Source of the DNA: a virus
Direction: 5' to 3' (one strand)
UHGV virus genome: UHGV-0187105
DNA: 24,417 nt
Below, one piece after another: positions 8,181 to 21,779 of this stretch. Under the pieces are notes generated by a model, which saw nothing but the letters and a program-made list of their open reading frames with translations, searched no databases and was not told the origin of the DNA. Within the stretch, counting starts at the first letter, position 1. Each line of letters opens with the position of its first letter. Both the position numbers and the translations under genes were made by a program.

Positions 8181-9914
8181 TTAAAGCGAGCGGATCCCAT
8201 AGGACTCAATGTGGTCAGACAGCGTGTCTTCTTTCTCGTACAGCATGGCTCTGCCAACCGCCATAATCAGCGCAACTGCACCGTCAATTTTGTTTTCCGC
8301 CTGCTCTTTGACGGGTTTCACCACATCATCGTTACCCGGAATGGTTTTGCCGACCACATTGCCGATACACCAGGTCATGATGGGATTGCCATCATGATGA
8401 AAGCGCCCCGATTCAATTGCCGCTTCCAGCTCTTTCATCGGGTCGGACATGTTGGTGTAGTTCTGAATGATAGTGACGGGATTCAGGTCTTCATCAGCAA
8501 GGTCATGTGACAACCCGGTCGCCCCGAAGGGGTCGATGGGTGACTCGCTGACCGGGCTGATTTTGTTCGCCGCTTTGGCCTCTTCGAGGATGTAGCGATA
8601 ATCCACCTCTGCACCATCGGTAACGGTCAGGACGCCCATTTCCACCCATTTCTGAAAGCGTTCGGCTGTCCGTCGATCTTCATTTTTCTCGACGCTGTAC
8701 ACCGTGTCATACGGTACCCAGAAACGCGGGGCCACACTGTAGTAATGCGTTTTACCGTCAATCTCGCGGGTATAAAGTCGCGCCATGCTGTTCATATCCA
8801 GCTTACGCGCCAGGTCAAAGGCCAGAATGCACGGTTGCCCCTCGAACTGCTCAAGGGTCAGTGATTTATCCTCGCAGCTCTGCCAGCTCACCAGGTTGAA
8901 ATACGCCGAACGCGCCGACACCCAGATATTGAGGTGTTTTGTTTTAAAGACGTTTGCCAGACGGGCGTTATTTTTCGCACGCTGCTGCTGACTTAACAAA
9001 AATTCGCGATAAACCGACACGCCAATATTCGGGTTAGCTTTTTCCAGCACCTGCGGGTCGGTCCAGTCATCGCCTTCGTCAACTGTATAGATGATCCCGA
9101 ACAATTCATCGTTGGGTACCGAACCGTTGAGCATCTCGATAACTTCCCGCCGCTTGTCGTAGCACGGCCCCTCAATGTTGTACCCGGCGGTGGTGATGGC
9201 CCACATCAGTGGCTGACGTCGCGCGCCCATCCCGGTAAGCATCGTGGTATAAAGCGCATCGGTGGCGTGCTCGTGATATTCATCCACCACGGCACAGTGG
9301 GGTGATGAACCATCACCGGGGTTACCGATCAGCGGTTCAAACCGCGCGCCATCCTCCGGACGGTTCATGTTTGAGGCGTTAACCTCAATCCCGAACGCTT
9401 CCGTCAGCATGGGTGTGCGTTTACACATCAGTCGCGCCGGGCGAAAGACTTCCCACGCCTGTTTCTCTGTCGTGGCACCGGAATACACTTCCGCGCCAAA
9501 CTCGTTATCACAGGCAAAACAATACAGGGCAACACCGGCAGAGATTGCCGATTTGCCGTTCTTACGGGGGATTTCGGTATACACCTCCCTGAAGCGGCGC
9601 AGCCGGGAGCCTTTATTGACCCAGCCAAACGCACAGCAGATCACAAAGAGCTGCCACGGTTCCAGCGTGATGGGCATCCTCTTGAATGCCCACTCCCCCT
9701 TGGTGTGTGGCAACAGCTGAATAAATTTCGCGGCCCGTTCAGCCAGGTCCTTGTCGAAGCGGTAACGAAACGACTTACTTTTTTCCGCCATCAGGTCATC
9801 AAGATGGCGCTGGCAGGCCTGAATCACAAACTGGCAGGCCACAATCTTTCCGCGCACGACATCACGGGCATACTGATTGGCAGCATTTACGTTGGGGTAA
9901 GATTTCCGGCTCAT
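8181..9914 (-). CDS. Terminase large subunit
   Basis: 577 aa ORF immediately after the terminase small subunit with a 4-nt overlap; size and position typical of HK97-like terminase large subunits. Confidence 0.85.
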
Positions 9915-10414
9915 GATTCGATGATTTTCAGAAACGGGTTAGTGGCTTTCTTCTGCCCCGCCAGGCCAATCAGACGCTGGCGGCTGCTGGGGTCGAGTCC
10001 GAGCATTGCCCCCGTGCTGCTCATCTCGGACTCCTGTTCTTTCTTGGCGGTCAGCTCCGGATTTTTGACCATGCCACCCATTGCACCGGTGATGGTGTTG
10101 CCCTGTCTGGCAATATTTTTCACGGCACGTCGCCAGAACTCGTAGGCCACGCACCACCGCTCAAGTACCGCCAAGTCAGTCACGCACAGCAGGCCCTGAC
10201 CGCAGAGTTCTTTGGTTGTCAGTTGCCACATGATCGTGGCGAGAGGGAGATCTTCTTCAGCGAACCACTCCGGTGGCTCAACACCTTTGATGGGCGTAAA
10301 AACAGGTTCATCTTTGTTCAGGGCTCGCTTGCCGGGGTTTCCGGCCAGCGCCTTGCGCGCCGTTGGCTTGGGGCGACGCCCGGAACGCCCCGCCGTTCCA
10401 GCCATATGCGGCAC
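9911..10414 (-). CDS. Terminase small subunit (P27-family-like)
   Basis: 167 aa basic N-terminus; the track start is GTG at 10414, but an in-frame ATG at 10405-10403 has AGGAG 8 nt upstream and is the more likely start. Confidence 0.75.
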
Positions 10415-10530
10415 TCCTGGTTAAATTTCATTTTTCGCGGGTATAAAAAAACGATGGGGCGGGCAGTCCGGAAGACGTCAGGTCACAGGGATTTGACCCG
10501 CCCCTCCCCTCTGGCAATGGGAACTGGTTC
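10415..10530. other. Candidate cos / packaging-recognition region
   Basis: 116-bp non-coding gap between the HNH endonuclease and terminase small subunit genes, where cos lies in HK97-like genomes. Contains a perfect 8-bp inverted repeat ggggcggg (10456-10463) / cccgcccc (10497-10504) and an A-tract at 10444-10450. Confidence 0.3.
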
Positions 10531-10881
10531 TTACTTCAGCCGTTCACGGGCCGTCTTCGCCTTATGACACGGCCAGCACAGACTCTGCAGGTTACTGTCG
10601 GCATCGGTGCCGCCATGCGCTTTGGGAATGATGTGGTCAACGGTTTTCGCCTCACGCACCACACCAGCACGCAGACATAACTGACATAAACCTTTATCAC
10701 GCTTCAGCACACACGCGCGGATAACATCCCACTTCGAACCATAACCGCGCTGGTGTCGGGACTGTCCAGGTTTGTACTGCTTCCAGCCTTCGCTTTTGTG
10801 GCTTTCGCAGTAGCCTGACGGGTCTGTGGTGGTATTACGGCAACCTCGAGCACGGCAGGCTTTCGGGATTCGTGGCGGCAT
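10531..10881 (-). CDS. HNH endonuclease (terminase-associated)
   Basis: 116 aa with Cys pairs and H-N-H core (VDHIIPKAHGGTDADSNLQSLCWPCH); sits immediately upstream of cos and the terminase genes, the usual arrangement in HK97-like phages. Confidence 0.85.
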   Translation of the reverse strand: MPPRIPKACRARGCRNTTTDPSGYCESHKSEGWKQYKPGQSRHQRGYGSKWDVIRACVLKRDKGLCQLCLRAGVVREAKTVDHIIPKAHGGTDADSNLQSLCWPCHKAKTARERLK

Positions 10882-11215
10882 ATGTACTAATCTCCGATTT
10901 ATCCAAATTTAACTGCCATAATGCCGACATTCTCTGCCATTATTGGCTCCGTTTATCCGTTAAAAGGGATATCAGTTAAGTTATCCCGTGCAGGGTATAA
11001 GTCATTGTCGAGACCACTTATTGAATGGCCTCTGCAATAACCGATGTCTTTCCATCAGTCCGCCACCACAAAGAATCTTTTTTGCCATAAGGCAGGAGGT
11101 TCATCTTTCAGTGGCTGCCAGTGTTATTTCCCCACTTACTGGCTTGGGTTGTTTCGCTGTACTGCCGTAACTGGTTACCCAGAATAAATTCCGGTTTCAT
11201 TATCGAAGCCCCTCA

Positions 11216-11896
11216 ATGAAGGGCTTCTGTAATGCCTTACTTCATGAAATTATTTCATCCGGGTTTACGCAGAAAACTTTTCACTTTATGTGCATTATGA
11301 AAATGCCAATTGCGGCATATCTCTGGGAAACTGAAATGATCCATACCGTACACTTCATGACAGATGTGACAGTTGCTTCTGTATCCAGCCTTATGGATGT
11401 TTGCCTCAAAGCGATATCAAGCCCTAACCAACCAGCCTCTGAGATCAGGATTTACATCTCTAGTAAAGGTGGAGATACCGTTGCAGGTTTTACCGCATAC
11501 AACTTTCTTAAGTCTCTTCCTGTAAAGGTGAAGACACATAACCTTAGTAACGTGGAATCTATAGCAAATGTTATTTTCATGGCTGGATCTGAGCGGTTTG
11601 CTAATCCTCTCTCGCGATTTTTATTACATCCTTTACATTGGGGATTTGCCGCCCCACAAGCAGATCACCTCAGGCTTAGGGAATGGGCGGCATGTCTGGA
11701 TGACGACTTGCAAAGATTTGTGCAGGTGATGAATATCGAGGCTCTCGCTGTAGCCCCAGATGAGCAAATTGACTGGGCTAATTTGATCACTTCTGCAACC
11801 ATCATTGATCCGGGAAGGGCCACCGAGTTGGGTATGATCCAGAATGTCGAGGCTGCAACCATACCCACAGATTCGATCAGGTGGTGGGTTCTGTAA
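11216..11896 (+). CDS. ClpP-fold serine protease-like protein (stand-alone moron gene)
   Basis: Core region IRIYISSKGGDTVAGFTAYNFLKSLPVKVKTHNLSNVESIANVIFMAGSERFANPLSRFLLHP aligns by eye to E. coli ClpP [66 protein letters not shown], with Ser and His at the catalytic positions. Opposite strand to all flanking genes; visibly more AT-rich than neighbours (not computed); own downstream terminator. True start uncertain: the 11216 ATG sits in a hairpin loop and an in-frame ATG at 11336 has GGGAAA upstream. Confidence 0.6.
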   Translation: MKGFCNALLHEIISSGFTQKTFHFMCIMKMPIAAYLWETEMIHTVHFMTDVTVASVSSLMDVCLKAISSPNQPASEIRIYISSKGGDTVAGFTAYNFLKSLPVKVKTHNLSNVESIANVIFMAGSERFANPLSRFLLHPLHWGFAAPQADHLRLREWAACLDDDLQRFVQVMNIEALAVAPDEQIDWANLITSATIIDPGRATELGMIQNVEAATIPTDSIRWWVL

Positions 11897-11917
11897 CATT
11901 TTGAATCCTCCATAAGT

Positions 11918-11945
11918 GCGGGCTTATTGGCCCGCTTGTTTCTTT
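11918..11945 (+). terminator. Rho-independent terminator after the ClpP-like gene
   Basis: gcgggc-ttattg-gcccgc hairpin followed by ttgtttcttt on the plus strand; lies between the convergent ClpP-like and Rz1 genes. Confidence 0.5.
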
Positions 11946-12247
11946 ACAGTTTGCCTAATATCTGCCTTATCCCGGTTGCACTGCCCAAGCGCTGATAGGA
12001 GACTGACGTTTAAATCTAGGCTCTGGCCCCACGTCAGGTTGTCAGGGATTTCCGGTTGCGGGGTGTCAGCCGTCAGGCTGGCCGGTAACGGGACTACCGG
12101 CACTTTGACGTAGACCGTTCGCGAATTGTTGCAGCCGCTTAACTGCGCCAGCAGGGACAGGGCGATTAGTGCAATCATCATTCGCAACAGCAACCCGGAT
12201 ATCAGCCGAGGCTCCCGATGCGTCCAGTGCGATCTGCTCTTTTGCAT
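11924..12247 (-). CDS. o-spanin (Rz1-like outer-membrane lipoprotein), overlapped architecture
   Basis: Lipobox LAQLSGC after a hydrophobic signal peptide; Pro-rich mature part; different frame from the i-spanin gene; begins inside it and extends past its stop. Likely real start at the internal Met pair (12181 or 12178). Confidence 0.55.
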   Translation of the reverse strand: MQKSRSHWTHREPRLISGLLLRMMIALIALSLLAQLSGCNNSRTVYVKVPVVPLPASLTADTPQPEIPDNLTWGQSLDLNVSLLSALGQCNRDKADIRQTVKKQAGQ

Positions 12248-12458
12248 GCTGGTTAGCCTCTATAACTGTATTGATGATTTGCAGTGATTGCAGAACGTTA
12301 CGGGTAATGGCAGTTGCTGATTCAGCATTTCGTACAGCCTCATCAGCACGCTCCTTTTCGTGCTGATATTTGCTGTAGTAATGCCCAGCAGACCAGATGA
12401 AGGAACCAATGACGGTAACAACGAAGGCAACAATAACCAGCCTATATCTCAGCTTCAT
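12066..12458 (-). CDS. i-spanin (Rz-like)
   Basis: 130 aa with an N-terminal transmembrane segment (LVIVAFVVTVIGSFIW) followed by a charged periplasmic domain; immediately downstream of the endolysin with a 17-nt overlap. Confidence 0.6.
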   Translation of the reverse strand: MKLRYRLVIVAFVVTVIGSFIWSAGHYYSKYQHEKERADEAVRNAESATAITRNVLQSLQIINTVIEANQHAKEQIALDASGASADIRVAVANDDCTNRPVPAGAVKRLQQFANGLRQSAGSPVTGQPDG

Positions 12459-12918
12459 TTACTACCCCACCAGCTTTTTTAAATCGGGCAATCAGGTCAC
12501 CGATTTTATGTTCATACTGACCGTAACCTGCACCAGGTAACGACGCCCAGATATTGCTGCAACGATCGATAGCCTGACGGATATCACCGCGATCAATCAT
12601 CGGTAAAGCGCCACGCTCTTTAATCTGCTGCAATGCCACAGCGTCCTGGCTTTTGGGGGAGAAGTCATTCAAACCAAGCTGTTTACGGTAAGCATCCCAC
12701 CAACGGGAAAGAAGCTGGTAACGTCCGGCTGCTGTTGATTTGAGTTTTGGGTTTAGCGTGACAAGTTTGCGAGGATGATCGGAGTAATCAGCGAATAGTT
12801 CGCCACCGACAATAACGTCATAACCGTGGTTACGTGTCGGTTGTCGCCCGTTATCCGTTCCTTCTGACCAGGCCACCATATCAAGGAAAGCTTTACGCTG
12901 AGGATTTAGTACCTGCAT
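12442..12918 (-). CDS. R: Endolysin, lambda R-type lytic transglycosylase
   Basis: 158 aa, near-identical over most of its length to my recollection of phage lambda R (…QRKAFLDM.AWSEGTDNGRQ.TRNHGYDVIVGGELF.DYSDHPRKLVTLNPKLKST.AGRYQLLSRWWDAYRKQLGL.DFSPKSQDAVALQQIKERGALPMIDRGDIRQAIDRCSNIWASLPGAGYGQ…). Confidence 0.9.
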   Translation of the reverse strand: MQVLNPQRKAFLDMVAWSEGTDNGRQPTRNHGYDVIVGGELFADYSDHPRKLVTLNPKLKSTAAGRYQLLSRWWDAYRKQLGLNDFSPKSQDAVALQQIKERGALPMIDRGDIRQAIDRCSNIWASLPGAGYGQYEHKIGDLIARFKKAGGVVNEAEI

Positions 12919-12921
12919 AAA

Positions 12922-13344
12922 TTACTCCTTCGAGCTACCAAATTTGTTACCGATTACTCGCATTGCAGCCCCACGAATAGCATCGACACCGATCAGCCCA
13001 ACGCCGCCACCAATGGCAACAGAAAGCGATTTGGGCCATCCGACATACTCAAGAGCGGATGCAAAAGTCAGCGTCAGAGCACCACAGAGCAAAATCTCGA
13101 GCGTTTTTCGCTTCCAGCCCCCTCCCCCGCCAAAATAGGCAATGCGCAAGCCAGCCATAACGATCGACATAATCACTGCACCCAGCGGTGTGTCTCCACG
13201 CCACCAGCTCTGTAACAGTTCAAGTAAATCAGGCCAGGAATGAGGATCGTTGTGCATTTCATAATTCCCACCTCCGATTACCGGAAGTGCCACAAGTAAA
13301 AGGGAAAGAAGCTGGTTATAACGCTGATTTGCAGAAGTGCGCAT
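12922..13344 (-). CDS. Putative holin (multi-pass membrane protein)
   Basis: Hydrophobic multi-TM protein immediately upstream of the endolysin with a 4-nt gap. The ATG at 13344 has no SD because a terminator hairpin abuts it; an in-frame ATG at 13257 has GGAGGTGGG about 9 nt upstream and would give a 111 aa product. Confidence 0.55.
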   Translation of the reverse strand: MRTSANQRYNQLLSLLLVALPVIGGGNYEMHNDPHSWPDLLELLQSWWRGDTPLGAVIMSIVMAGLRIAYFGGGGGWKRKTLEILLCGALTLTFASALEYVGWPKSLSVAIGGGVGLIGVDAIRGAAMRVIGNKFGSSKE

Positions 13345-13368
13345 AAAAAAGGCCGCCCGTAGGCGGCC
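13345..13368 (-). terminator. Intrinsic terminator directly upstream of the holin gene (tR'-like)
   Basis: Perfect hairpin ggccgcc-tacg-ggcggcc followed by TTTTTT on the minus strand, between the 67 aa ORF stop and the holin ATG; position matches lambda tR', which Q-modified RNA polymerase reads through. Confidence 0.6.
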
Positions 13369-13386
13369 TCAAAAATCTTATTTTCA

Positions 13387-13590
13387 TCATCGCGAAGGAT
13401 GGAGGGTTTTATGACGAGGTTTAATGTAAACCTCATAGGAATGAGACAGCTTGTCTACTTCTCTAATTGGTAATTCCCAACCAGTATTCAGCAGAATACT
13501 TTTCTGAGTAGCAGACACTAACACTGAGCCAATCTCAATATTATTTGCAATTGCCACGACCTTCTTGGTCGTGTGTTTACTATTTTGCAT
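13387..13590 (-). CDS. Hypothetical 67 aa protein in the Q-to-holin interval
   Basis: ATG at 13590 preceded by GGAGAT-cacc; lies in a visibly AT-rich stretch between a candidate promoter and the tR'-like terminator. No family recognised. Confidence 0.5.
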   Translation of the reverse strand: MQNSKHTTKKVVAIANNIEIGSVLVSATQKSILLNTGWELPIREVDKLSHSYEVYIKPRHKTLHPSR

Positions 13591-13591
13591 G

Positions 13592-13634
13592 GTGATCTCC
13601 TTTCAACCAGCATCACAAATGTGATGGAGATCAC
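13592..13634 (-). promoter_or_regulatory. Nested inverted repeat in the 5' leader of the 67 aa gene
   Basis: Outer perfect 9-bp inverted repeat gtgatctcc (13592-13600) / ggagatcac (13626-13634) enclosing an inner palindrome CATCAC-aaat-GTGATG (13611-13626); sits between the candidate promoter and the RBS. Confidence 0.4.
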
Positions 13635-13661
13635 AATATCACTTGTTCAAAAAACATGCAA
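13633..13661 (-). promoter_or_regulatory. Candidate sigma70 promoter (pR'-like late promoter or moron promoter)
   Basis: Minus strand TTGCAT - 17 nt - TATTGT, about 120 nt downstream of the Q stop codon. Confidence 0.4.
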
Positions 13662-13782
13662 CATAAAACCCACCTGAGCGGGTTTATAAAAGTTAGACAT
13701 TCAATGCCCATCTTTACGTTAAGGCTAACCATATTTTTTGAAAATTGCAAGCATTGTGCGGAGAAAATCATTAAAAATGTAG

Positions 13783-14535
13783 CTATCGTGTCACTTTTTG
13801 CAACTGTAACTCTGCGAATGCTTCTTCCTGCCAGCACTTTGTTACCAGTTTATCAATGACGTCTGCATATCCTTTGTACCACTGATAATCCGTCAGGTCT
13901 GGTACCAGCTTCTGGACATGATGCCGCGCCAGTGTGGTTGGTAAACGGCTAAACCGGTTTCCATTGCAACGCCCACAAATCTTATAAACAGGCGTGCCAT
14001 GAAGCCGGGTCCTTTTTTCATCCAGGACAATACCTTTACCCTTACACCCTCTGCACGCTGTGCTGACTTCTCCCTTACCATGACAATGCTGACACAGTTC
14101 CTTCACCCACTCTTCCTTGATAACAGATTCCCCGCTTCTGGAGTGTTTTACCACCTCGCGCAATACATCATGAAATCCAGTACCAGCACAATGCTCACAG
14201 CGAGCCTTACTTGCCGCAGACCTGGAATAATCAGCAAAGGCAAAATTCACAAGGTAAGGGATGATCTGTAACCGGATTTCTTCACTCAATTTGTTCAATG
14301 TCGGGTTATTCAGTGCCATCGCGTAATTGAGCAGACCTTCAATCGCAAACTGAGGGTCCTGAACGCCAACTTTTGCCAGGAATAAGGCAAACCCAAGCGG
14401 TGCTTTCGACTGCACCATCCCCTGCGCAGCCATTACATCCGTAATTGTTAAACCACCCGAGCCTGTCGCCGGTGCGTCATCGCTCAGTTTTGGAGATTTC
14501 GGGGAGTAATATTTCGGTAAGGCTTCAAGGTTCAT
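13783..14535 (-). CDS. Late-gene antiterminator Q (QuuQ-type, zinc-finger repeats)
   Basis: 250 aa with four CxxC-type motifs (CEHCAGTG, CQHCHGKG, CRGCKGKG, CGRCNG), immediately upstream of the promoter/terminator/lysis-cassette arrangement. I recall the family as the 250 aa Qin-prophage QuuQ type. Confidence 0.7.
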   Translation of the reverse strand: MNLEALPKYYSPKSPKLSDDAPATGSGGLTITDVMAAQGMVQSKAPLGFALFLAKVGVQDPQFAIEGLLNYAMALNNPTLNKLSEEIRLQIIPYLVNFAFADYSRSAASKARCEHCAGTGFHDVLREVVKHSRSGESVIKEEWVKELCQHCHGKGEVSTACRGCKGKGIVLDEKRTRLHGTPVYKICGRCNGNRFSRLPTTLARHHVQKLVPDLTDYQWYKGYADVIDKLVTKCWQEEAFAELQLQKVTR

Positions 14536-14548: not shown

Positions 14549-15544
14549 TTACGCCAGTACGCCTATTGCCAGCGCACGATCGATAAAACGAAATATCAGC
14601 TCCAGCTGGGAACCATACTTCTCTTCAAATGCCACGGTATCCGCATGCAGCTCGTCGTGATGCTTTCTGCACAAAGGCAACACAAAGAGGTCATGCGCTT
14701 TTGTACCCATTCCACCCTGACCGTGGCCTATCAGGTGGTGGGGATCATCAGCAGGCTTTCCACAACATGCACACGGCTGCGTCTTAACCCAGCGCGTGTA
14801 CTTTTCATTAACCCAGCGGCGACGTTTGGGGCGTAACATAAAAGACTCCGGCGACTCCGGATCCACTTTCAGCGCCAGCACCTTTTTCGCCTTATCCTGG
14901 ATGATGCAGGTGGCAGGAACCGAAGGCACAAGGTCACTTTCCCGGGTAACAGACGGCACAACAGGCTTCGGTAATCTCAGTGCCTTACGGGCTGCACTTT
15001 CCGGTAAGGCATCCGCCAGATCATTACGAATCAGCCACCAGCACAGTTCCGGCATTGTCACAACATGACTGTCATCAAAACCGAGATCCCGACGCACAAC
15101 AGACAACACCCAGCGGGCACTGTTATCCGTTGCCATTGATTCCAGCCGTTCCGTGAACTGATCGCGCAGCTGGTTATCGCAGTGCCAGCACAAACGGATT
15201 GCGCCCGGAGCGTGTCGCATTGTTGTCATGTTCTCGCTGTGCCAGTCGGAATGAGGCCACTGGCAGCCTTTTTCACGAAGTAACCAGCTTTCAAGACATT
15301 CCACGCCACCAGCACGATGGATCACTGCCTCATTGCGGAACACGGCCCGAACGGCAGGATCATCCGCCAGCGGTTGTGATGCCGCCGGAACGGCACCACT
15401 GGCGAAAGATGAATAACGTTCCGGCTCAGGCTCCAGCAAGACACGCCCCTGCATAAACAAGGGCATCAGCTCTGAACCTGGTCTGAACAATACGATCCCC
15501 ATACGCGGGGCAATTTCAGGGGTCAGTAGTGCTCTCACGGTCAC
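14549..15544 (-). CDS. DUF968-like protein (YdfU-like) with C-terminal HNH-like Cys/His motif
   Basis: 331 aa; C-terminus PCACCGKPADDPHHLIGHGQGGMGTKAHDLFVLPLCRKHHDELH; position upstream of Q is typical for this family in lambdoid prophages (from memory). Track start is GTG. Confidence 0.6.
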   Translation of the reverse strand: MTVRALLTPEIAPRMGIVLFRPGSELMPLFMQGRVLLEPEPERYSSFASGAVPAASQPLADDPAVRAVFRNEAVIHRAGGVECLESWLLREKGCQWPHSDWHSENMTTMRHAPGAIRLCWHCDNQLRDQFTERLESMATDNSARWVLSVVRRDLGFDDSHVVTMPELCWWLIRNDLADALPESAARKALRLPKPVVPSVTRESDLVPSVPATCIIQDKAKKVLALKVDPESPESFMLRPKRRRWVNEKYTRWVKTQPCACCGKPADDPHHLIGHGQGGMGTKAHDLFVLPLCRKHHDELHADTVAFEEKYGSQLELIFRFIDRALAIGVLA

Positions 15545-16752: not shown

Positions 16753-17075
16753 ACTTTCAGGCCCCTCTCATGTAACCAGTGGGCTGCACGCAGCCTGGCG
16801 TTTTCCTCACCGGCAAGCAGTGAGCGGATAATCCCGACCGCCTCGCTGTCGTCGTCCTTCACCGCGGTATGAAGAGTGATACCACGGGCCACGCCACGCT
16901 TTATCGTGATGACGCCTTTTTTCTCCAGTGCTCTAAGATGCTCCACCGCTGCATTCACTGAACGGTATCCCAGCATGGTTGCCACCTCCTGATTGGTTGG
17001 CGGGAAGCCACGTTCTTTCTGATAAGAAATCAGCATATCCAGCACCTGCTGCTGGCATTGAGTTAACGTCGTCAT
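16749..17075 (-). CDS. LexA-N-terminal-like winged-helix DNA-binding protein (no protease domain)
   Basis: 108 aa; QQQVLDMLISYQKERGFPPTNQEVATMLGYRSVNAAVEHLRALEKKGVI resembles the LexA N-terminal DNA-binding domain ([49 protein letters not shown], from memory). Confidence 0.55.
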   Translation of the reverse strand: MTTLTQCQQQVLDMLISYQKERGFPPTNQEVATMLGYRSVNAAVEHLRALEKKGVITIKRGVARGITLHTAVKDDDSEAVGIIRSLLAGEENARLRAAHWLHERGLKV

Positions 17076-17758
17076 GCCGCCATCTCCCTGACAAGTTTTT
17101 CTGCCTGCTGGCGAACCTGCGCCAGAAAGGCCTCACCACATGCCTCAAGTTCATCGCGCCCGATGTAGCTGATTGCCGGTCCCTTCCAGGTCTTGTCGAA
17201 AACAGCAATAGCACCAGCGAAGAACGCTCCTGTCGGCACCTGCTTCTCGTCCTTCGGGATAAACCAGGCAGGCAGTTCAAAACCAATACGCCCGCGAATA
17301 AAAGCAATATGGTCCGCATCTTCCGGCCACCACACTTCGCTGGTGGCAGCTTTGATCAGGAAAACATAGCGCCCGCCCTTATCACGCATGGCACTGGCAT
17401 GTTTCATGATGTAACGCATGCCGGTGATGTATTGCCCCTCATGCTGACTGGCGCGGCTGTATGGGGGATTACCAAAGGCAGCACCTTTAAGCTCCGCAAG
17501 ACGTTCTGACCAGTCATGCGCCAGCGCGTTGTCTTCCGCCGTGTAATACGCGGCACATTTGGCGTTATCACCGTCAGTGAACAGATCCAGAACAAACGGG
17601 CCAAACAGGGTGTTAATTCCCCAGAAAATGTTGTCCGGCGTGCGCCACTGATCGCCCACTTCCTTCAGTTCATGGGCTGGTTTGTTCCGCAGTTCCACCA
17701 GCGTCTGGCAATATTTATTACTCATTAAGCCCCCACGTAATTCCCTGACAGATACCAC
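17072..17758 (-). CDS. DNA N6-adenine methyltransferase (phage Dam-type)
   Basis: Contains the NPPY catalytic motif (AFGNPPYS). Track start is GTG at 17758; ATG at 17725 overlaps the upstream gene stop (TAATG) and is the likely start. Confidence 0.75.
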   Translation of the reverse strand: MVSVRELRGGLMSNKYCQTLVELRNKPAHELKEVGDQWRTPDNIFWGINTLFGPFVLDLFTDGDNAKCAAYYTAEDNALAHDWSERLAELKGAAFGNPPYSRASQHEGQYITGMRYIMKHASAMRDKGGRYVFLIKAATSEVWWPEDADHIAFIRGRIGFELPAWFIPKDEKQVPTGAFFAGAIAVFDKTWKGPAISYIGRDELEACGEAFLAQVRQQAEKLVREMAA

Positions 17759-18219
17759 TCTTCACCCGATGCAGCGCGCTTGCTGCTTTTCCGTAAGCAC
17801 CGCTCACGACGCGCCAGAAAATTGTTTCGTTCTGGCTGGGAGTGGCTTTCACGGAATGCCGCCATCCACACGGTTGCAGCACGACGGTATAAGCCCCTGG
17901 ACTCCAGTTCTTCCGCCTGGCGGGTCAGGCACAAAATCACACGGGGATCGTTAGTGCCGACATAGAAATTGCGCACAGGTCTGGTTTCACGAACTGGTTG
18001 TGGTTCCGGTTCCTGCGCTCTCTCAGTCAGGCGCGGGAAATGTCTGCGTGTATCTCCTTCACAACGGTGAGCCACACGCCCACTCTGACGTAACTTGCTT
18101 GCTGACTGCAGAACTCGCTGCCGTGAGTAACCTGCAAAAGCATCCGCAATGTCTCCGGAAGTACACCCCGGATGGGCTTCAATGAATTTCTGAACGTCAT
18201 TCAACAGACTCATGATCAC
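17725..18219 (-). CDS. Two-domain regulator: N-terminal winged-helix-like region plus C-terminal PerC-like motif
   Basis: C-terminal QAEELESRGLYRRAATVWMAAF resembles the conserved GL(W/Y)RRAA..W core I recall for PerC/Pch-family activators; the N-terminal half looks like a winged-helix domain. Likely start ATG at 18213. Confidence 0.4.
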   Translation of the reverse strand: MIMSLLNDVQKFIEAHPGCTSGDIADAFAGYSRQRVLQSASKLRQSGRVAHRCEGDTRRHFPRLTERAQEPEPQPVRETRPVRNFYVGTNDPRVILCLTRQAEELESRGLYRRAATVWMAAFRESHSQPERNNFLARRERCLRKSSKRAASGEEWYLSGNYVGA

Positions 18220-19157
18220 CCCCTGAATCCTGCCGGGATCTGGCTGTAGTCCACGTTGTCGTAACTGGCTTTGAAGTACGGGTCTTCGCGTTTTTCGGTG
18301 TACGTGCTGACGGACGGCGATAAGCGCAGGGAAAGCTCATCCCATTTTTCCCGCAGCTTCGACGGGCTGAGCACGTTACGGCACCAGAACGGATCGCGAC
18401 TGACGCGGCTGTACATCTCGCAGATTTGTTTATGAGTACGACCATCCTGCACACACATCAGGCGAATTTCGTTTGCCCAGGCTGTCCAGTTCGGTTCTTT
18501 GGGACGAACCACCTCGCCGTCACATTCGGCGGCCTGCTCGTACAGGGCGATGATTTTTTTCCAGAGCCACTGTGCGCAGGTCAAATCATCCTGCGTTCCC
18601 CACTGGCGCTTTTTAGGGCTGAATACAACCGCATCAGGATGGCGAGTTAAAAACTCCTGTTCAGCCGTCTGCGTGTCCGGTTGCGAAGCGTCCGGACGAG
18701 AAGTTTTTTTATCTGACGGATCATGTTTTGATTTTACTGACGGATCCCCGCCAGATTCTGACGGGTGAAAAACCGCTTTTTTGCCAGATTTCGACGCATC
18801 AAATTTTGACGGGTCAGATTTTGATGCGTCAGATTTTGACGGGTCAGAATCTGACAGTTGAGAAAATGCCGCTGCCTGAAGCTTCGCAACGTTAAGCTGA
18901 TAAACATTCGACGCATTGCGGTTACCCTGGCGACGCGCCTTACGCGTTAACCAGCCTTCTGCTTCCAGCCGTGCGATAGCCGTTCTGACGGTACTCATCC
19001 CCGCGCCAATCTGGCGGGCAATGGTTTCAATTGATGGCCAGCACACACCTTCGTCATTACTGAAATCAGCTAGGCGGGCCATAATTGCCACGCTGGATAA
19101 TTTCATGCCTGACGCAGCGCAACCATCCCATACATAGCCGGTTAATTTAGTGCTCAT
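18216..19157 (-). CDS. Replication initiator, O-like (N-terminal HTH; iteron array inside coding sequence)
   Basis: 313 aa at the position of lambda O, after the cro-proximal genes; N-terminal winged-helix-like domain; the central linker SDPSKSDASKSDPSKFDASKSGKK is encoded by tandem 15-bp DNA repeats, as the lambda ori iterons are inside O. Confidence 0.55.
   Translation of the reverse strand: MSTKLTGYVWDGCAASGMKLSSVAIMARLADFSNDEGVCWPSIETIARQIGAGMSTVRTAIARLEAEGWLTRKARRQGNRNASNVYQLNVAKLQAAAFSQLSDSDPSKSDASKSDPSKFDASKSGKKAVFHPSESGGDPSVKSKHDPSDKKTSRPDASQPDTQTAEQEFLTRHPDAVVFSPKKRQWGTQDDLTCAQWLWKKIIALYEQAAECDGEVVRPKEPNWTAWANEIRLMCVQDGRTHKQICEMYSRVSRDPFWCRNVLSPSKLREKWDELSLRLSPSVSTYTEKREDPYFKASYDNVDYSQIPAGFRG
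18713..18855. repeat. Iteron-like tandem direct repeats (candidate origin of replication)
   Basis: At least six degenerate 15-bp units of form TGAYGSRTCAGATTT (e.g. cgacgcatcaaattt, tgacgggtcagattt, tgatgcgtcagattt, tgacgggtcagaatc) in phase with the O-like reading frame; short T-rich tract at 18700-18711. Confidence 0.6.
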
Positions 19158-19166
19158 GACCGACCT

Positions 19167-19505
19167 CTATTTCCCTGAATTTACGACGAAACTGTTCGAG
19201 CGGGCTGAAGCACTCATGCTCATAGCCTTCGCGGAGGTAGATAACCCGTTGTGTTTCCGGTTCCCAACGAATGACTCTGACGGGCACTCCGTAGTGATCT
19301 TTGAACCAGCGGTTAACTTGTCGCAAAGGACTGTCTCCTTCTGCCGGTTGAAATCACCCACAGCCCACTCAGCAAAGCTGTGGGTTACAATTTCCCTGTC
19401 ACCTGGTACATTCACTGCATAGCAATACTCCACCTTCGCTTTTCCACCCGGTACAGGAAGTGCAATCAGTTGCGAGCGACGGTAGTGTGTTGTTAAACTG
19501 TTCAT
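19167..19505 (-). CDS. Hypothetical protein (112 aa)
   Basis: ATGA start/stop overlap with the upstream gene and 10-nt gap to the O-like gene suggest translational coupling in the early-right operon. No family recognised. Confidence 0.45.
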
Positions 19506-20167
19506 GCGTTAGTTTCTCCACAGTCACGACACGCCACGGCGCCCGGAGCTGCACACTCGCGGGCGTCATTACTTTCTGAAATGCAAAAAATTTTGTAGAC
19601 CAGTGCTGCATGCTCCTGCAGCTTCGAAATTGAGAGATACAGCTCGTCGTTAATTGCTGTCTTCTCATGCGGTTCCACCACACCGTCTTCGATTGCCGAA
19701 CGAATCTGTCTGGAATAACTGCCAATCTGTTCAATGACTTCCAGCAGGCGCTGGTTAATATCGGCGTTGTCCACATCCTCGACGTCAGGAAGAGACACAA
19801 AGACGCCATTTGCAGACTGCGCCACAGCGTCAGCAATGAAGTGAGTTCCACCAGCACGTTGCAAAATCATTGCCCATCCCAGCGGGAAAATCTGATCGCC
19901 ATCGGCACGAAGGCGGTTAAATAATGCGTTTTCTGTTACATCCAGCCAGTCAGCTGCTTCAGCGTAACCACCCGGCAACGCTGCGATAGTTTTTCTGACA
20001 GCTTTCACGTACCACTCAGGCTGTTTTTCTACTTTCCAGTGATGCTTACCCACGGTTAGCCTCATCGTTCTGTGGTTTCTGTTAATCGATTTATCCATTA
20101 GATTTTTCATAAAGCTCAGGTTTAAATGGCAACCGTCCGCAAGTTCTATATGCAGCTTCTGCTGCAC
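19502..20167 (-). CDS. Early regulatory protein, CII/YdaT-like by position (family uncertain)
   Basis: 221 aa ORF directly downstream of the cro-like gene; annotated start overlaps cro by 77 nt, so the true start may be an internal Met (20110 or 20098). Confidence 0.4.
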
Positions 20168-20291
20168 GTCCTTTTGGAATTAACTGGCCCGGACGGTTTC
20201 GCCACTGATAAACGGCTTCAGTTGTTATGCCGAAAAAAGCAGCAACTTTCTCAATACTGCCGAAGTAGCTTTCGATATCGTCAGTTGTCAT
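20091..20291 (-). CDS. Cro-like HTH repressor (Cro/YdaS-type)
   Basis: 66 aa; HTH segment VAAFFGITTEAVYQWRNR; divergent from the CI-type repressor across a 97-bp operator region; GGAGG 4 nt upstream of the ATG. Confidence 0.7.
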   Translation of the reverse strand: MTTDDIESYFGSIEKVAAFFGITTEAVYQWRNRPGQLIPKGRAAEAAYRTCGRLPFKPELYEKSNG

Positions 20292-20388
20292 ACGCCCTCC
20301 AAACTAAGTTTTATTAGATGCTAATTACAAATCTATCTTTGGTCAATAAAAACTAAGATTACTTAGCAATTCAAGAAATGGTGCTCCT
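20292..20388. promoter_or_regulatory. Divergent immunity control region (OR-like operators with candidate pR)
   Basis: Repeated ACTAAG-core motifs (aaactaagtttt at 20301-20312; palindrome CTAAG-atta-CTTAG at 20353-20366). Candidate rightward promoter on the minus strand: TTGACC (20346-20341) - 17 nt - TAGCAT (20323-20318). Confidence 0.55.
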
Positions 20389-21015
20389 ATGGAAACGGTT
20401 GGTCAGCGTATAAAAGCTCTGAGAAGAGTTACCGGAACGTCCCAGAAAGAATTGGGTAAATTTTGTGGAGTAAGCGACGTTGCTGTGGGGTACTGGGAGA
20501 AAGACATCAATACCCCTGGTGGGGAGGCACTTTCGAAATTAGCGAAGTTCTTCAATACGTCAATAGATTACATTCTTTATGGTGCTGAGTTTGAAGGCAA
20601 ACTCGTCACAAACATGCGCAGAGTTCCTGTAATATCGTGGGTTCAGGCTGGGCAGTTTACTGAGTGCAGGGCAGCAGAAGTGTTTAGTGAAGTGGACAAG
20701 TGGGTAGATACATCATTAAAGATTGGTGATAACTCATTTGCATTAGAGGTTAAAGGTGACTCCATGACTAACCCTAATGGCCTCCCAACAATACCAGAAG
20801 GCGCAACAGTGATTGTAGATCCAGATGCAGAACCTCGTCATGGAAAAATAGTCATCGCTCGACTTGATGGAACAAACGAAGCTACAGTTAAAAAATTAGT
20901 CATCGATGGCCCTCAAAAGTTTTTAGTGCCATTAAATCCTCGGTATCCCAACATCCCTATCAATGGTAATTGCCTTATCATTGGTGTAGTCAAAGGAGTT
21001 CAATACGAACTCTAA
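20389..21015 (+). CDS. CI-type phage repressor (N-terminal HTH, C-terminal S24 LexA-like autopeptidase)
   Basis: 208 aa; N-terminal HTH (GTSQKELGKFCGVSDVAVGYWE); C-terminal domain with GDSM serine motif and a downstream Lys (VKKL) consistent with the Ser-Lys dyad of self-cleaving repressors. Confidence 0.85.
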   Translation: METVGQRIKALRRVTGTSQKELGKFCGVSDVAVGYWEKDINTPGGEALSKLAKFFNTSIDYILYGAEFEGKLVTNMRRVPVISWVQAGQFTECRAAEVFSEVDKWVDTSLKIGDNSFALEVKGDSMTNPNGLPTIPEGATVIVDPDAEPRHGKIVIARLDGTNEATVKKLVIDGPQKFLVPLNPRYPNIPINGNCLIIGVVKGVQYEL

Positions 21016-21100
21016 GACCTCTCTTCTCTAACTAAGGCACCGAACTAAGAAAAGTTTGGTGTTTTCTCTTGCCATAATAACTAAGTTAAGTTAGATTTTA
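21016..21100. promoter_or_regulatory. Second cluster of operator-like ACTAAG motifs immediately 3' of the repressor gene
   Basis: taACTAAGg (21030-21037), gaACTAAGaaaAGTTt (21043-21058), taACTAAGttaAGTTag (21079-21094): same core as the cro-proximal sites, two with an AACT-N6-AGTT inverted arrangement. Confidence 0.4.
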
Positions 21101-21221
21101 TATCAAAGATAACGAACAGGCAGGACGCCCACGAAGTAGCCGCCTGGGGCATATGAAGTCCAGGATGATTCGTTGAGTCATGTTGTGCCACCAGGCACTC
21201 ATGTTAAAGCAGGTGTATGAA

Positions 21222-21497
21222 ATGAAAGTCCAGATTTTAAACAATAACTGTGAAGTCGTTTGGTCATACGACATAGCCGCCCCTGTAGATCAGAGCGGCG
21301 ATAGCTGGACCAATGGGAAACATCAGATTATGGCTGGAGTTGTGTTCTCTTTACGCCGTGCTTTGGAACAGGCTGAAGTATTTCCATCAGACCCTGAATG
21401 GAAATGGCCTTTTTCTATTTGTCCAAATTCGGAGAGCACATTTCAGAAAATTGGTCAGAAAGTCGCACTCGAAGAGCATCAGCCAACTGTTTCCTGA
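21222..21497 (+). CDS. Hypothetical protein at the rex-equivalent position downstream of the repressor gene
   Basis: Track ORF 21180..21497; in-frame ATG at 21222 has AGGTG 6 nt upstream and is the likely start (91 aa). 3' end overlaps a minus-strand ORF by 83 nt. Confidence 0.4.
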   Translation: MKVQILNNNCEVVWSYDIAAPVDQSGDSWTNGKHQIMAGVVFSLRRALEQAEVFPSDPEWKWPFSICPNSESTFQKIGQKVALEEHQPTVS

Positions 21498-21660: not shown

Positions 21661-21779
21661 TTGATTTTCCTTTTATGTATACGGGCTTAAAAGGATACCA
21701 CCGAGCCTGAAGTGGTGAAAAGACAGGCACATAACAGCTAAGTATTTTCAACCAGAGAGAATCCTTAGCGTTGTGGTGA

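What the first reader, a model, noticed from the sequence alone, without database searches (positions are those of the whole stretch)
10882..11945. Stand-alone ClpP-fold serine protease gene inserted on the opposite strand between the lysis and packaging modules
The phage already has an HK97-type prohead protease (6118..6804), so this second protease is not the capsid maturation enzyme. Its core aligns by eye to ClpP with Ser and His at the catalytic positions. It is the only plus-strand gene in about 20 kb of minus-strand late genes, looks AT-rich relative to its neighbours, and has its own terminator (11918..11945). These are hallmarks of an independently expressed moron at a known accessory hotspot. 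A lone ClpP-like protease here could act in defence or superinfection exclusion, or could degrade a host or phage regulator; I do not recognise a described system of this type. The start is ambiguous: the first ATG sits in the loop of a perfect 7-bp hairpin (gaagccc / gggcttc, 11205..11227).
Basis: partly seen in the sequence, partly recalled or inferred. Interest (0 to 1): 0.75.

Follow-up and report, generated by a model that had tools for sequence, protein, structure and literature searches.

The report
Prophage accessory gene: short ClpP-like protease
Between its lysis and packaging genes, facing the other way, this temperate phage carries an intact stand-alone gene for a shortened ClpP-type protease that is not its capsid protease; the same gene turns up at accessory-gene sites in many prophages, so it probably serves the lysogen, but what it degrades is untested.

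Summary
Window 11336..11896 (+) encodes an intact 186-aa ClpP-fold protein: Pfam CLP_protease E=7e-12, AlphaFold pLDDT 93, TM 0.80 to E. coli ClpP. Catalytic Ser75 and His98 are invariant, and dN/dS is about 0.08. The true start is ATG 11336, not the ATG in the hairpin loop.

The protein belongs to a small subfamily of short ClpPs. These lack the N-terminal axial loops and have Ala where canonical ClpP has the catalytic Asp. The only characterised member is chromosomal Pseudomonas plecoglossicida ClpP1 (PDB 9UXT; E=2.6e-30, TM 0.90).

The host is an SfV-like lambdoid prophage with its own HK97-type prohead protease. The gene fills a variable slot (10882..11954) between the HNH/terminase genes and Rz/Rz1. 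It points the same way as cI and has its own terminator. A sister phage carries a different gene in this slot.

Relatives occur in at least 131 viral contigs, at five or more insertion sites, and on the strand opposite to at least one flanking gene in 77 of 78 loci. In 41 of 78 loci the gene forms an operon with the Mnt repressor of a P22-type immI region.

So the "moron" reading is supported. No clear promoter was found, no defence-system model matches, and function is untested. I rate it a new member of a known kind, of moderate interest.

The parts
10882..11954 (.). Variable cargo slot between the HNH endonuclease start codon and the 3' end of Rz1/Rz.
   Evidence: Homology to sister phage vB_EcoM-689R6 stops at 10881 and resumes at 11955. 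That phage carries an unrelated 168-aa minus-strand ORF here. Slot GC is 0.444 against 0.554 for the packaging genes.
10931..11243 (-). Conserved 313-nt non-coding element of the lambdoid late operon. It is not specific to the ClpP gene and occupies the upstream part of the slot.
   Evidence: It is 91-97% identical in full-length copies in HK97, HK022, mEp234, Dewey and P22-like Kapi1, and matches about 2,500 complete E. coli genomes, in unannotated gaps. The minus-strand RNA fold gives z=-5.6. There is no Rfam hit.
11198..11945 (+). Mobile cassette shared with unrelated prophages: hairpin, 5' region, ClpP-like gene and terminator.
   Evidence: It is 98.7% identical over 11198-12260 to E. coli ECCTRSRTH03 (L001) and to L005, 96% to L009 and 85% to L010. 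Those backbones have different packaging modules.
11205..11227 (.). Perfect 7-bp hairpin (GAAGCCC, 9-nt loop, GGGCTTC). The first in-frame ATG (11216) lies in its loop.
   Evidence: Read directly from the sequence. Other copies have a different stem sequence that still pairs: GAGCCAC/GTGGCTC in L009 and L010, AAGCCCA/TGGGCTT in Dewey and Kapi1. The flanks ATTATC and TGTAATG are conserved.
11245..11253 (+). Weak candidate extended -10 element (TGaAATTAT). This is the only recurrent promoter-like motif upstream of the gene, and it is unverified.
   Evidence: A relaxed scan finds it. It is conserved in cassette copies L001, L009 and L010, and reads TGAAATAAT in L004. The strict sigma-70 scan found nothing in 10500-12500.
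11336..11896 (+). Gene for a short ClpP-family peptidase, 186 aa, stop codon included. Catalytic Ser75 is at 11558-11560 and His98 at 11627-11629. Ala162 (11819-11821) sits at the canonical Asp position.
   Evidence: Pfam, PHROG and NCBIfam hits. Family alignment A1. PDB sequence and profile hits. Structure model and fold search. dN/dS 0.07-0.08. Start supported.
11918..11945 (+). Intrinsic terminator of the ClpP-like gene. The stem is 11918-11935 and is followed by a T-rich tail. It overlaps the stop-codon region of Rz1 on the other strand.
   Evidence: Terminator scan. The minus-strand side has no T-run, so it should act on plus-strand transcription only.
10531..10881 (-). Left flank: HK97 gp74-type HNH endonuclease, the first gene of the packaging module.
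   Evidence: PHROG 144, E=2.6e-45.
11924..12458 (-). Right flank: the Rz spanin (12066-12458) and the embedded Rz1/LysC (about 11924-12178). This is the end of the lysis cassette the gene travels with.
   Evidence: PHROG 214, E=2.5e-42. LysC and DUF2570 are annotated beside the 99% allele in E. coli and Klebsiella prophages.

Best explanation
**What it is.** The feature is a moron, a self-contained accessory gene carried by the prophage. It encodes a short ClpP-family serine peptidase of the PpClpP1 type.

**Shown here.**
- The gene (11336..11896, 186 aa) is intact and under strong purifying selection.
- It has the ClpP fold with invariant catalytic Ser75 and His98.
- It lacks the roughly 25 N-terminal residues that form ClpP's axial gate and couple the barrel to ClpX/ClpA.
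- It has Ala at the catalytic Asp position.
- It is not the capsid protease.
- It moves as a cassette between unrelated temperate phages.
- It sits antisense to the surrounding operons, in the orientation of cI, with its own terminator.

**Inferred expression.** I infer that it is transcribed from the repressed prophage, like lambda bor or P22 sieA, and is silenced by convergent late transcription during lytic growth. In about half of the relatives the gene is translationally coupled to mnt, the immI maintenance repressor made in lysogens.

**Inferred mechanism, by homology to PpClpP1.** The protein assembles into ClpP-like heptameric rings with a wide ungated pore and cannot dock ClpX or ClpA itself. 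It then acts in one of two ways. My preferred version (about 0.35) is that it stacks on a ring of the host's single canonical ClpP and so re-tunes ClpXP/ClpAP proteolysis in the lysogen. The alternative (about 0.30, listed as a rival) is that it works as an ATPase-independent homo-tetradecamer.

**Open.** The biological pay-off is not established. It could be protection of the lysogen against other phages, or control of the turnover of phage or host regulators.
For: **Identity.**
- Pfam PF00574 E=7e-12.
- Model pLDDT 93.3.
- TM 0.90 to 9UXT and 0.80 to E. coli ClpP.
- Full-length match to PpClpP1, E=2.6e-30, and 7.6e-56 with the family profile. Canonical ClpPs score no better than 1.7e-12.
- Ser75, His98 and the GG motif are invariant.
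- Canonical ClpPs align from their residue 23-36 onward, and their catalytic Asp column is Ala in this family.

**Constraint.** dN/dS is 0.07-0.08.

**Not the head protease.**
- A separate HK97-type protease lies at 6118-6804.
- The NCBIfam head-maturation model scores 47.5 against a cut-off of 120.
- The best viral structures are at most 25% identical and mostly much longer.

**Moron behaviour.**
- The slot is variable between sister phages.
- The 99% allele occurs in four different Klebsiella prophage backbones and in an E. coli prophage with an S49 head protease.
- 131 viral contigs carry relatives.
- In 77 of 78 loci at least one nearest large neighbour is on the opposite strand, and both are in 56.
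- Insertion sites include Rz|terminase, the P22 immI/sieA region, N|erf, tail fibre|lysis and tape measure|baseplate.
- The gene has its own terminator.
- The cI-like repressor is on the same strand.

**Link to lysogeny.** The mnt stop codon overlaps the clp start codon (TAATG), and the pair is divergent from arc-ant.

**Mechanistic precedent.** PpClpP1 forms a tetradecamer with a 42.7 A pore and does not bind ClpX. It forms a more active heterotetradecamer with canonical ClpP2 that ClpX engages through ClpP2. Its Ser and His are essential, and the third triad residue is dispensable (PMC12900304).
Against: - No sigma-70 promoter meets the consensus anywhere in 10500-12500. Only weak motifs exist. 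Independent or lysogenic expression of this copy is therefore not shown.
- Identity to PpClpP1 is only 34-40%, so oligomeric state, failure to bind ClpX and mixing with a canonical ClpP are extrapolations. None could be computed here because no multimer prediction was available.
- PpClpP1 is a vertically inherited chromosomal gene, not a phage gene, so its physiology may not transfer.
- GC3 matches the adjacent lysis genes, so composition alone does not mark the gene as foreign to that module.
- The window copy has no Mnt partner, so the immI link does not apply directly to it.
Confidence: 0.5

Rival explanations
1. It is a stand-alone superinfection-exclusion or anti-phage defence protein. 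The prophage-expressed, gate-less ClpP barrel works without any ATPase. It degrades unfolded or disordered proteins of incoming phages, such as ejection proteins that enter the cell unfolded, or it arrests the infected cell.
For: The insertion sites are the classic homes of prophage exclusion genes. These are the P22 sieA position downstream of mnt next to ejection-protein genes gp7/gp20/gp16 (PMC10883804), the N-proximal region, sites inside tail operons as for HK97 gp15 (PMC3594210), and the bor position in the window. The 42.7 A ungated pore of PpClpP1 would admit unfolded chains. No obligatory partner gene is conserved across contexts.
Against: No PADLOC model matches the protein or its slot-mates. 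No literature links a phage ClpP-like gene to defence. The PpClpP1 homo-tetradecamer has low peptidase activity. Location at hotspots is only circumstantial, since bor and lom sit at such sites without being defence genes.
Confidence: 0.3
2. It is a component of the phage's own immunity or anti-immunity circuit. It is co-expressed with Mnt and removes leaked or incoming antirepressor (Ant/Bro-N) or Arc, or another phage regulator. This would stabilise lysogeny or tune induction.
For: In 41 of 78 loci the gene is the second cistron of the mnt operon (stop and start overlap as TAATG), divergent from arc-ant. The pairing persists when the antirepressor type changes (P22_AR in E. coli phages, Bro-N in Pectobacterium) and when the whole cassette sits in a lambda-type tail operon. 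A 35%-identical homologue lies beside an HTH_3 regulator and a Bro-N gene.
Against: The window copy and all Rz-linked copies lack any Mnt/Arc/Ant neighbour, so the function cannot depend on immI. The slot downstream of mnt is a general lysogen-expressed cargo site, occupied by sieA and orf59a in P22. Many of the 41 loci are near-identical copies of one cassette, so they are not independent observations.
Confidence: 0.12
3. It is a second or alternative prohead (head-maturation) protease or scaffold-processing enzyme, as the best PHROG hit and some database annotations suggest.
For: The best PHROG family is phrog_94, head maturation protease, E=1.2e-22. NCBIfam Clp_rel_HeadMat matches at E=1.8e-12. 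Phage phiv205-1 annotates its homologue as a head maturation protease.
Against: The NCBIfam score of 47.5 is far below the 120-bit cut-off. Only the ClpP core of the 622-column PHROG profile is matched, with no scaffold or delta domain. The gene lies outside the head module on the opposite strand. The phage already has an HK97-type protease. The same allele sits in phages with S49 or other head modules and in P22-like phages, which need no prohead protease (my own knowledge). The closest structure is a bacterial ClpP1, not a viral protease.
Confidence: 0.03
4. It is an ordinary ClpP captured from a host that docks ClpX/ClpA like the cellular enzyme, or else a decaying remnant without function.
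For: PGAP names it 'ATP-dependent Clp protease proteolytic subunit'.
Against: The N-terminal axial-loop region and the catalytic Asp are absent throughout the family. All NCBIfam ClpP equivalog scores are 5-20 times below their cut-offs. dN/dS of about 0.08 and intact ORFs in all 80 sampled viral loci argue against decay.
Confidence: 0.05

Closest known systems
Pseudomonas plecoglossicida ClpP1 (PpClpP1; PDB 9UXT; PMC12900304)
   Same: Homologous over the full length: E=2.6e-30, or 7.6e-56 with the family profile, 34-40% identity and TM 0.90. Similar size (183 against 186 aa). Both start directly at the first beta-strand with no axial loops. Both have catalytic Ser and His with a non-acidic third residue.
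   Different: PpClpP1 is a chromosomal gene, syntenic across the P. putida group and flanked by PLD, Exo_endo_phos and KGG stress-protein genes rather than phage genes. Its third residue is Pro, against Ala here. Its partner ClpP2 is encoded by the same genome, whereas the phage protein would have to work with, or beside, the host's single ClpP. The phage-borne clade has not been studied.
Canonical ClpP (E. coli ClpP, 1TYF/1YG6; MEROPS S14, Pfam PF00574)
   Same: Same fold (TM 0.80). The Pfam hit is above the gathering score. The Ser and His positions and the GG motif are shared.
   Different: About 18% identity. The first roughly 25 residues, which form the axial gate and couple to the ATPase, are missing. 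The catalytic Asp is replaced by Ala. All NCBIfam ClpP models fall far below their cut-offs. The gene is not in a clpP-clpX operon.
Alternative ClpP isoforms that form hetero-complexes (P. aeruginosa ClpP2, Listeria ClpP1, Mycobacterium ClpP1P2)
   Same: The concept is the same: a second, less active ClpP isoform modulates the main ClpXP machine by ring mixing (abstracts listed).
   Different: In sequence they are no closer to this protein than ordinary ClpPs; PaClpP2 (7M1L) scores E=3.7e-10. They are cellular genes, not phage cargo.
ClpP-related phage prohead proteases (PHROG 94; NCBIfam NF045542)
   Same: Shared ClpP core, with weak-to-moderate profile matches.
   Different: The match is below the curated cut-off. 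There is no C-terminal scaffold domain. The gene lies outside the head module on the opposite strand, and the phage has its own HK97-type protease.
Classic lambdoid morons: lambda bor (Rz|cos, antisense to late genes), P22 sieA/orf59a (downstream of mnt), HK97 gp15
   Same: The genomic logic is the same: one gene, opposite orientation, its own terminator, presence or absence between sister phages, sites shared with these genes, and bacterial chromosomal homologues, as gp15 has in YebO (the position of bor is my own knowledge).
   Different: Those products are small membrane proteins or lipoproteins. This one is a cytoplasmic self-compartmentalising peptidase with no signal peptide or transmembrane segment evident in the model.

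Membership tests
ClpP / peptidase S14 (Pfam PF00574) | Profile match above the curated threshold | tested here: met
   46 bits against a gathering score of 20.2, E=7e-12.
ClpP / peptidase S14 (Pfam PF00574) | ClpP alpha/beta fold with a handle helix | tested here: met
   Model pLDDT 93.3. TM 0.80 to 1YG6 and 0.90 to 9UXT.
ClpP / peptidase S14 (Pfam PF00574) | Catalytic Ser and His at the canonical positions | tested here: met
   S75 and H98 are invariant in 33 sequences and aligned to the catalytic Ser/His motifs of PpClpP1 (its S73 and H96) and of canonical ClpPs.
ClpP / peptidase S14 (Pfam PF00574) | Catalytic Asp completing the triad | tested here: not met
   The Asp column of T. thermophilus and S. 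aureus ClpP aligns to Ala162, nearly invariant in the family, and to Pro in PpClpP1.
ClpP / peptidase S14 (Pfam PF00574) | N-terminal axial loops that gate the pore and couple to ClpX/ClpA | tested here: not met
   The protein starts at the first core beta-strand. Canonical ClpPs align only from their residue 23-36 onward.
ClpP / peptidase S14 (Pfam PF00574) | Double-heptamer (tetradecamer) assembly | not testable with these tools
   Inferred only from PpClpP1 cryo-EM. No multimer prediction was available.
PpClpP1-type short ClpP subfamily | Full-length homology that is much stronger than to canonical ClpPs | tested here: met
   9UXT scores E=2.6e-30 and 7.6e-56, against no better than 1e-6 and 1.7e-12 for all other PDB ClpPs. 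About 120 clusters reach E<=1e-30 among 1.84 billion representatives.
PpClpP1-type short ClpP subfamily | Truncated N-terminus and a non-acidic third triad residue | tested here: met
PpClpP1-type short ClpP subfamily | No ClpX binding, and hetero-tetradecamer formation with a canonical ClpP | not testable with these tools
   This is a biochemical property of PpClpP1 and is untested for the phage protein.
ClpP-related phage head-maturation protease (NF045542 / PHROG 94) | Score above the curated NCBIfam cut-off | tested here: not met
   47.5 bits against 120.
ClpP-related phage head-maturation protease (NF045542 / PHROG 94) | Encoded in the head module between the portal and major capsid genes, co-oriented with them | tested here: not met
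   The gene lies between the HNH and Rz1 genes on the opposite strand. The head module has its own protease at 6118-6804.
Moron (Juhala/Hendrix definition; PMC3594210) | Present or absent between otherwise similar phages | tested here: met
   689R6 and SfV share the backbone at 96-97% identity but not the gene.
Moron (Juhala/Hendrix definition; PMC3594210) | Own terminator | tested here: met
   11918-11935 plus a T-run. The immI-linked homologue also ends in a terminator.
Moron (Juhala/Hendrix definition; PMC3594210) | Own promoter | tested here: inconclusive
   The strict scan found none. Only weak motifs exist, for example TGaAATTAT at 11245-11253.
Moron (Juhala/Hendrix definition; PMC3594210) | Base composition different from the neighbours | tested here: inconclusive
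   GC is lower than the packaging genes (0.444-0.462 against 0.554), but GC3 equals that of the adjacent lysis genes.
Moron (Juhala/Hendrix definition; PMC3594210) | Expressed from the repressed prophage | not testable with these tools
   Suggested by orientation (same strand as cI) and by the operon with mnt in relatives.
Known anti-phage defence systems (PADLOC-DB 2.0) | Match to any defence-protein model | tested here: not met
   No family matched the protein at E<=1 or at E<=0.01.

The most novel reading that the evidence does not exclude
Temperate phages of Enterobacterales spread a gate-less, ATPase-uncoupled ClpP subunit as a single-gene lysogenic-conversion factor. It would either co-assemble with the host's ClpP to reprogramme ClpXP/ClpAP substrate flow, or act alone as an exclusion or defence protease against incoming phage proteins. 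Either way it would be a previously unrecognised way for a prophage to take over or supplement the host's compartmentalised proteolysis. Its operon partnership with the Mnt repressor would mark it as part of the lysogenic programme.
Probability: 0.25. Interest if true: 0.75.

Novelty: new member of a known kind. Interest (0 to 1): 0.45.

Why it matters
ClpP-like genes in phages are routinely taken for capsid proteases or auto-named 'ATP-dependent Clp protease proteolytic subunit'. This one is neither. It is a conserved, mobile accessory gene, found in 131 viral contigs. The mnt-linked form matches 78-149 of 5,426 complete E. coli genomes (78 with at least 80% of the operon). The window allele occurs in several Klebsiella and E. 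coli prophages.

It sits at the same sites as known lysogenic-conversion and exclusion genes. Its only characterised relative modulates the cellular ClpXP machine by ring mixing. If the phage version does the same, or acts as an exclusion protease, it would be a new type of prophage-host interaction through compartmentalised proteolysis.

It would also be simple to test: one small gene, clear active-site mutants, and a genetically tractable host with a single ClpP. If it has no phenotype, it remains an ordinary uncharacterised moron.

Tried and rejected
- **PADLOC.** No hit for the protein. Among alternative or neighbouring cargo genes (the 182-aa ORF of L011-17, the 689R6 slot gene, HK97 gp73 and others) there were no hits apart from two weak ones, PDC-S22 for HK97 gp73 and NsnC for a neighbour of the immI-type loci.
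- **Rfam.** Nothing credible over 10400-12400.
- **Promoter scans.** The strict sigma-70 scan and my own relaxed scan gave no convincing promoter.
- **Literature.** Five searches for phage- or prophage-encoded ClpP, morons, immI or defence found nothing on this gene type. The P22 SieA paper does not mention it.
- **Is PpClpP1 itself prophage-borne?** Rejected. Its locus is syntenic across P. putida-group species and flanked by housekeeping and stress genes.
- **Mnt-like RHH plus ClpP as a toxin-antitoxin pair?** This was suggested by a weak FitA-like RHH hit and the overlapping stop and start codons. I consider it unlikely. The RHH protein also matches Pfam Repressor_Mnt and sits divergent from arc-ant, and many copies, including the window's, have no RHH partner.
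- **The ATG at 11216 or PGAP's ATG at 11297 as the start.** Rejected in favour of 11336.
- **Covariation in the 313-nt conserved element.** The copies are too similar to decide: 1 of 88 pairs shows a compensatory change.
- **Not possible here.** No multimer prediction was possible.
Full report
**1. What is in the sequence**

It lies between a minus-strand HNH endonuclease (10531..10881) and the minus-strand Rz/Rz1 spanin genes (11924..12458).

The hairpin is real: GAAGCCC at 11205-11211, GGGCTTC at 11221-11227, with ATG 11216 in the loop. So is the terminator: a 7-bp stem at 11918-11935 followed by TTGTTTCTTT. The reverse-strand side of that stem has no T-run, so it should stop only plus-strand transcription.

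GC falls to 0.44-0.47 across 10751-12000. The slot is 0.444 and the CDS 0.462, against 0.554 for the packaging genes. The lysis cassette is 0.506, and its GC3 (Rz 0.458, endolysin 0.428) equals that of the gene (0.455). The compositional step is therefore on the packaging side only.

**2. Gene model**

Thirty-three homologues at 35-82% identity are 178-199 aa long, and most begin M[LI]HT[VI]HF. This corresponds to ATG 11336. Two further results support that start.
- A 78%-identical allele in the same phage backbone (L011, L013) loses homology at 10881 and regains it at 11334, two bases before this ATG.
- A more divergent allele has a GAGGAA Shine-Dalgarno sequence at the matching position.

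The gene is therefore 11336..11896 (186 aa). The ATG at 11216 and PGAP's 11297 are upstream in-frame codons. dN/dS against alleles at 89% and 78% identity is 0.07-0.08. All 80 sampled viral loci match over residues 1-185 or 1-186.

**3. Protein identity**

- Pfam CLP_protease matches above threshold, E=7e-12.
- The AlphaFold2 model is confident, with pLDDT 93.3 and pTM 0.89.
- It superposes on E. coli ClpP at TM 0.80 and on PDB 9UXT at TM 0.90.
- Ser75 (VESIAN), His98 (RFLLHPL) and the GG motif are invariant and align to the catalytic residues of ClpPs.

Two canonical features are absent throughout the family. The protein starts at the first core beta-strand, and canonical ClpPs align only from their residue 23-36, so the axial loops are missing. 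The catalytic Asp column is Ala162.

Every NCBIfam ClpP and head-maturation model scores far below its cut-off. PADLOC has no match.

**4. Family and closest characterised relative**

A family profile finds about 120 clusters at E<=1e-30 among 1.84 billion representatives. ClpP-like proteins in general number 17,760 at E<=1e-3. This is a small, distinct subfamily of short ClpPs.

Its one characterised member is Pseudomonas plecoglossicida ClpP1 (9UXT). It scores E=2.6e-30, or 7.6e-56 with the profile, while all other PDB ClpPs score no better than 1e-6 and 1.7e-12.

The paper (PMC12900304) reports the following for PpClpP1:
- a truncated N-terminus and a Ser-His-Pro triad;
- a homotetradecamer with a 42.7 A pore and low peptidase activity;
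- no ClpX binding;
- a more active heterotetradecamer with canonical ClpP2, which ClpX engages through ClpP2.

PpClpP1 is chromosomal. Its locus is syntenic across P. putida-group species and flanked by PLD, Exo_endo_phos, KGG stress-protein and DUF6555 genes. A 42%-identical Massilia homologue is also in a non-phage context.

**5. The host element and the slot**

The window is an SfV-like lambdoid prophage. It is 97% identical over 88% of its length to vB_EcoM-689R6 and 96% to SfV.

The minus strand carries these genes, in window order:

| Gene | Coordinates |
|---|---|
| Tail sheath | 1218..2714 |
| Major capsid protein | 4898..6103 |
| HK97-type prohead protease | 6118..6804 |
| Portal | 6746..7987 |
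| TerL | 8181..9914 |
| TerS | 9911..10414 |
| HNH endonuclease | 10531..10881 |
| Rz / Rz1 | 11924..12458 |
| Endolysin | 12442..12918 |
| Holin | 12922..13344 |
| Q antiterminator | 13783..14535 |
| Replication protein O | 18216..19157 |
| cII | 19502..20167 |

The cI-like repressor (20389..21015) is on the plus strand, like the ClpP-like gene.

Homology to 689R6 breaks exactly at 10881 and 11955. That phage has an unrelated 168-aa minus-strand gene in the slot. No record in the phage collection carries this allele.

The left part of the slot (10931-11243) is a 313-nt non-coding element. Full-length copies in HK97, HK022 and P22-like phages are 91-97% identical, and it matches about 2,500 complete E. 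coli genomes. The hairpin is its distal end.

**6. Mobility**

A cassette at 11198-11945 (hairpin, 5' region, gene, terminator), together with the adjoining Rz1/Rz end, is 85-99% identical in prophages with quite different packaging and head modules. These include an E. coli prophage with an S49 head protease and four Klebsiella backbones. In each it is the lone gene antisense to its neighbours and adjacent to LysC/DUF2570.

More diverged relatives occur in 131 IMG/VR contigs. Of 78 loci analysed, both nearest large ORFs are on the opposite strand in 56, and one of them in 21.

Other insertion sites:
- **P22-type immI region.** The arrangement is ant(-) arc(-) | mnt(+) clp(+), seen in 41 of 78 loci. 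The components were verified by Pfam Arc, Repressor_Mnt and P22_AR/Bro-N hits. The mnt stop overlaps the clp start (TAATG), and a terminator follows clp.
- **The same cassette inside a lambda-type tail operon**, between genes K and L in PhiR12_1.
- **Between N and erf/ssb** in a Proteus prophage.
- **Between tail-fibre and lysis genes** in Chromobacterium.
- **Next to tail-fibre assembly and invertase genes, and between tape-measure and baseplate genes**.

The mnt-clp operon matches 149 of 5,426 complete E. coli genomes, 78 of them over at least 80% of its length. The window allele occurs in about 7.

**7. Expression signals**

No sigma-70 consensus promoter is found in 10500-12500. A relaxed scan gives only weak candidates. 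The most recurrent is an extended -10-like TGaAATTAT at 11245-11253, conserved in the cassette copies.

Expression from the prophage is therefore inferred from three things:
- orientation (same strand as cI, convergent with the late operon);
- the private terminator;
- the operon with mnt in relatives.

By the P22 paradigm, mnt is made in lysogens to keep Pant off; that point is my own knowledge. Its adjacency to sieA and orf59a is from PMC10883804.

**8. Mechanism**

The shown steps are:
- an intact, constrained ClpP-fold Ser/His peptidase without a gate or an acidic triad residue;
- a gene that is not the capsid protease;
- a mobile, antisense, terminator-equipped accessory gene.

The inferred steps are:
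- assembly into ClpP-like rings with an open pore and no direct ATPase docking, by homology to PpClpP1;
- action through co-assembly with the host's single canonical ClpP (my preferred version, about 0.35), or as an ATPase-independent homo-oligomer (about 0.30).

The biological role is unresolved between three options: exclusion or defence, control of phage regulators such as Ant and Arc, and general re-tuning of Clp proteolysis. The insertion sites are those of bor, sieA and gp15-type genes, which leans towards a lysogen-benefit or exclusion role. This is circumstantial.

A head-protease role is effectively excluded by sections 3, 5 and 6 and. An ordinary ClpX-docking ClpP or a decaying remnant is also unlikely.

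**9. Comparison and novelty**

The protein is a member of the ClpP/S14 clan and of the PpClpP1-type short-ClpP subfamily. It fails the tests for canonical ClpP (Asp, N-terminus) and for ClpP-related prohead proteases.

As a genetic element it meets most criteria for a moron (PMC3594210). The promoter is unproven and the composition test is only half met.

No paper in the searchable library describes a phage-borne member or assigns it a function.

I rate it a new member of a known kind and moderately interesting. It is a clean, testable lead, but I would not call it a surprise.

Noticed in passing
window 10931-11243 (minus strand is the late-transcript sense): A 313-nt non-coding element sits in the late operon between the post-lysis cargo and the first packaging-module gene. 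Full-length copies in HK97 (38655-38966, an unannotated gap), HK022, mEp234, Dewey and P22-like Kapi1 are 91-97% identical. Part of it lies in the P22 orf201-orf80 gap, and it matches about 2,500 of 5,426 complete E. coli genomes. It has long invariant runs and no conserved ORF. The predicted minus-strand fold is -103.6 kcal/mol (z=-5.6). There is no Rfam match. The copies are too similar for covariation to decide (1 of 88 pairs compensatory). It may be an unannotated structured leader or processing element upstream of orf80/DUF2560 or the HNH gene.
   Followed up: partly
window 11205-11227; L009/L010 about 5870-5895; Dewey L169 about 1300-1325: The 7-bp hairpin at the end of that element has different stem sequences in different phages but stays perfectly paired: GAAGCCC/GGGCTTC, GAGCCAC/GTGGCTC and AAGCCCA/TGGGCTT. 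The flanks ATTATC and TGTAATG are conserved. It is also the left breakpoint of the ClpP cassette in unrelated prophages, so it may be a functional RNA or DNA hairpin or a preferred recombination boundary.
   Followed up: partly
L011-L017 (e.g. L016:3760-4308, plus strand), the same SfV-like backbone as the window: In sister prophages the slot holds a 182-aa ORF (MFDFTHFEELTLASHQ...) directly upstream of, and co-oriented with, a 78%-identical ClpP-like allele. It has no Pfam or PADLOC match. It could be a second cargo gene or an operon partner.
   Followed up: partly
L084 (Escherichia phage PhiR12_1, PV340549.1 about 39120-41132); L066-L068: A complete P22-type immI module (ant, arc, mnt) plus the ClpP-like gene is inserted inside a lambda-type tail operon, between tail genes K and L. 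This is an unusual place for an immunity/anti-immunity cassette.
   Followed up: partly
L047, L048, L051, L055 (e.g. L051:1661-2110, minus strand): In some P22-like loci the gene next to the ClpP-like gene is a YafO-type toxin (Pfam YafO_toxin, E=3.4e-22) followed by a 198-aa unknown ORF. In other loci that neighbouring position holds a lipoprotein-like ORF or a 350-aa ORF. This is a highly variable cargo site.
   Followed up: no
L088:9965-10543 and flanks (Pseudomonas plecoglossicida NBRC 103162): The published 'ClpP1' of P. plecoglossicida lies in a locus conserved across the P. putida group. It is next to a KGG-repeat stress-induced protein, DUF6555, a PLD-family protein and an Exo_endo_phos protein. 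It is not near clpX or any phage genes.
   Followed up: partly
window 13251-13750 and 20001-21750: There are two further AT-rich stretches (GC 0.40-0.43). One lies between the holin and Q genes. The other covers the cI-like repressor region. A 331-aa 'HNH endonuclease' family protein (14549-15544) and a PAPS-reductase/DNA-methyltransferase-like protein (17072-17758) sit in the nin region.
   Followed up: no
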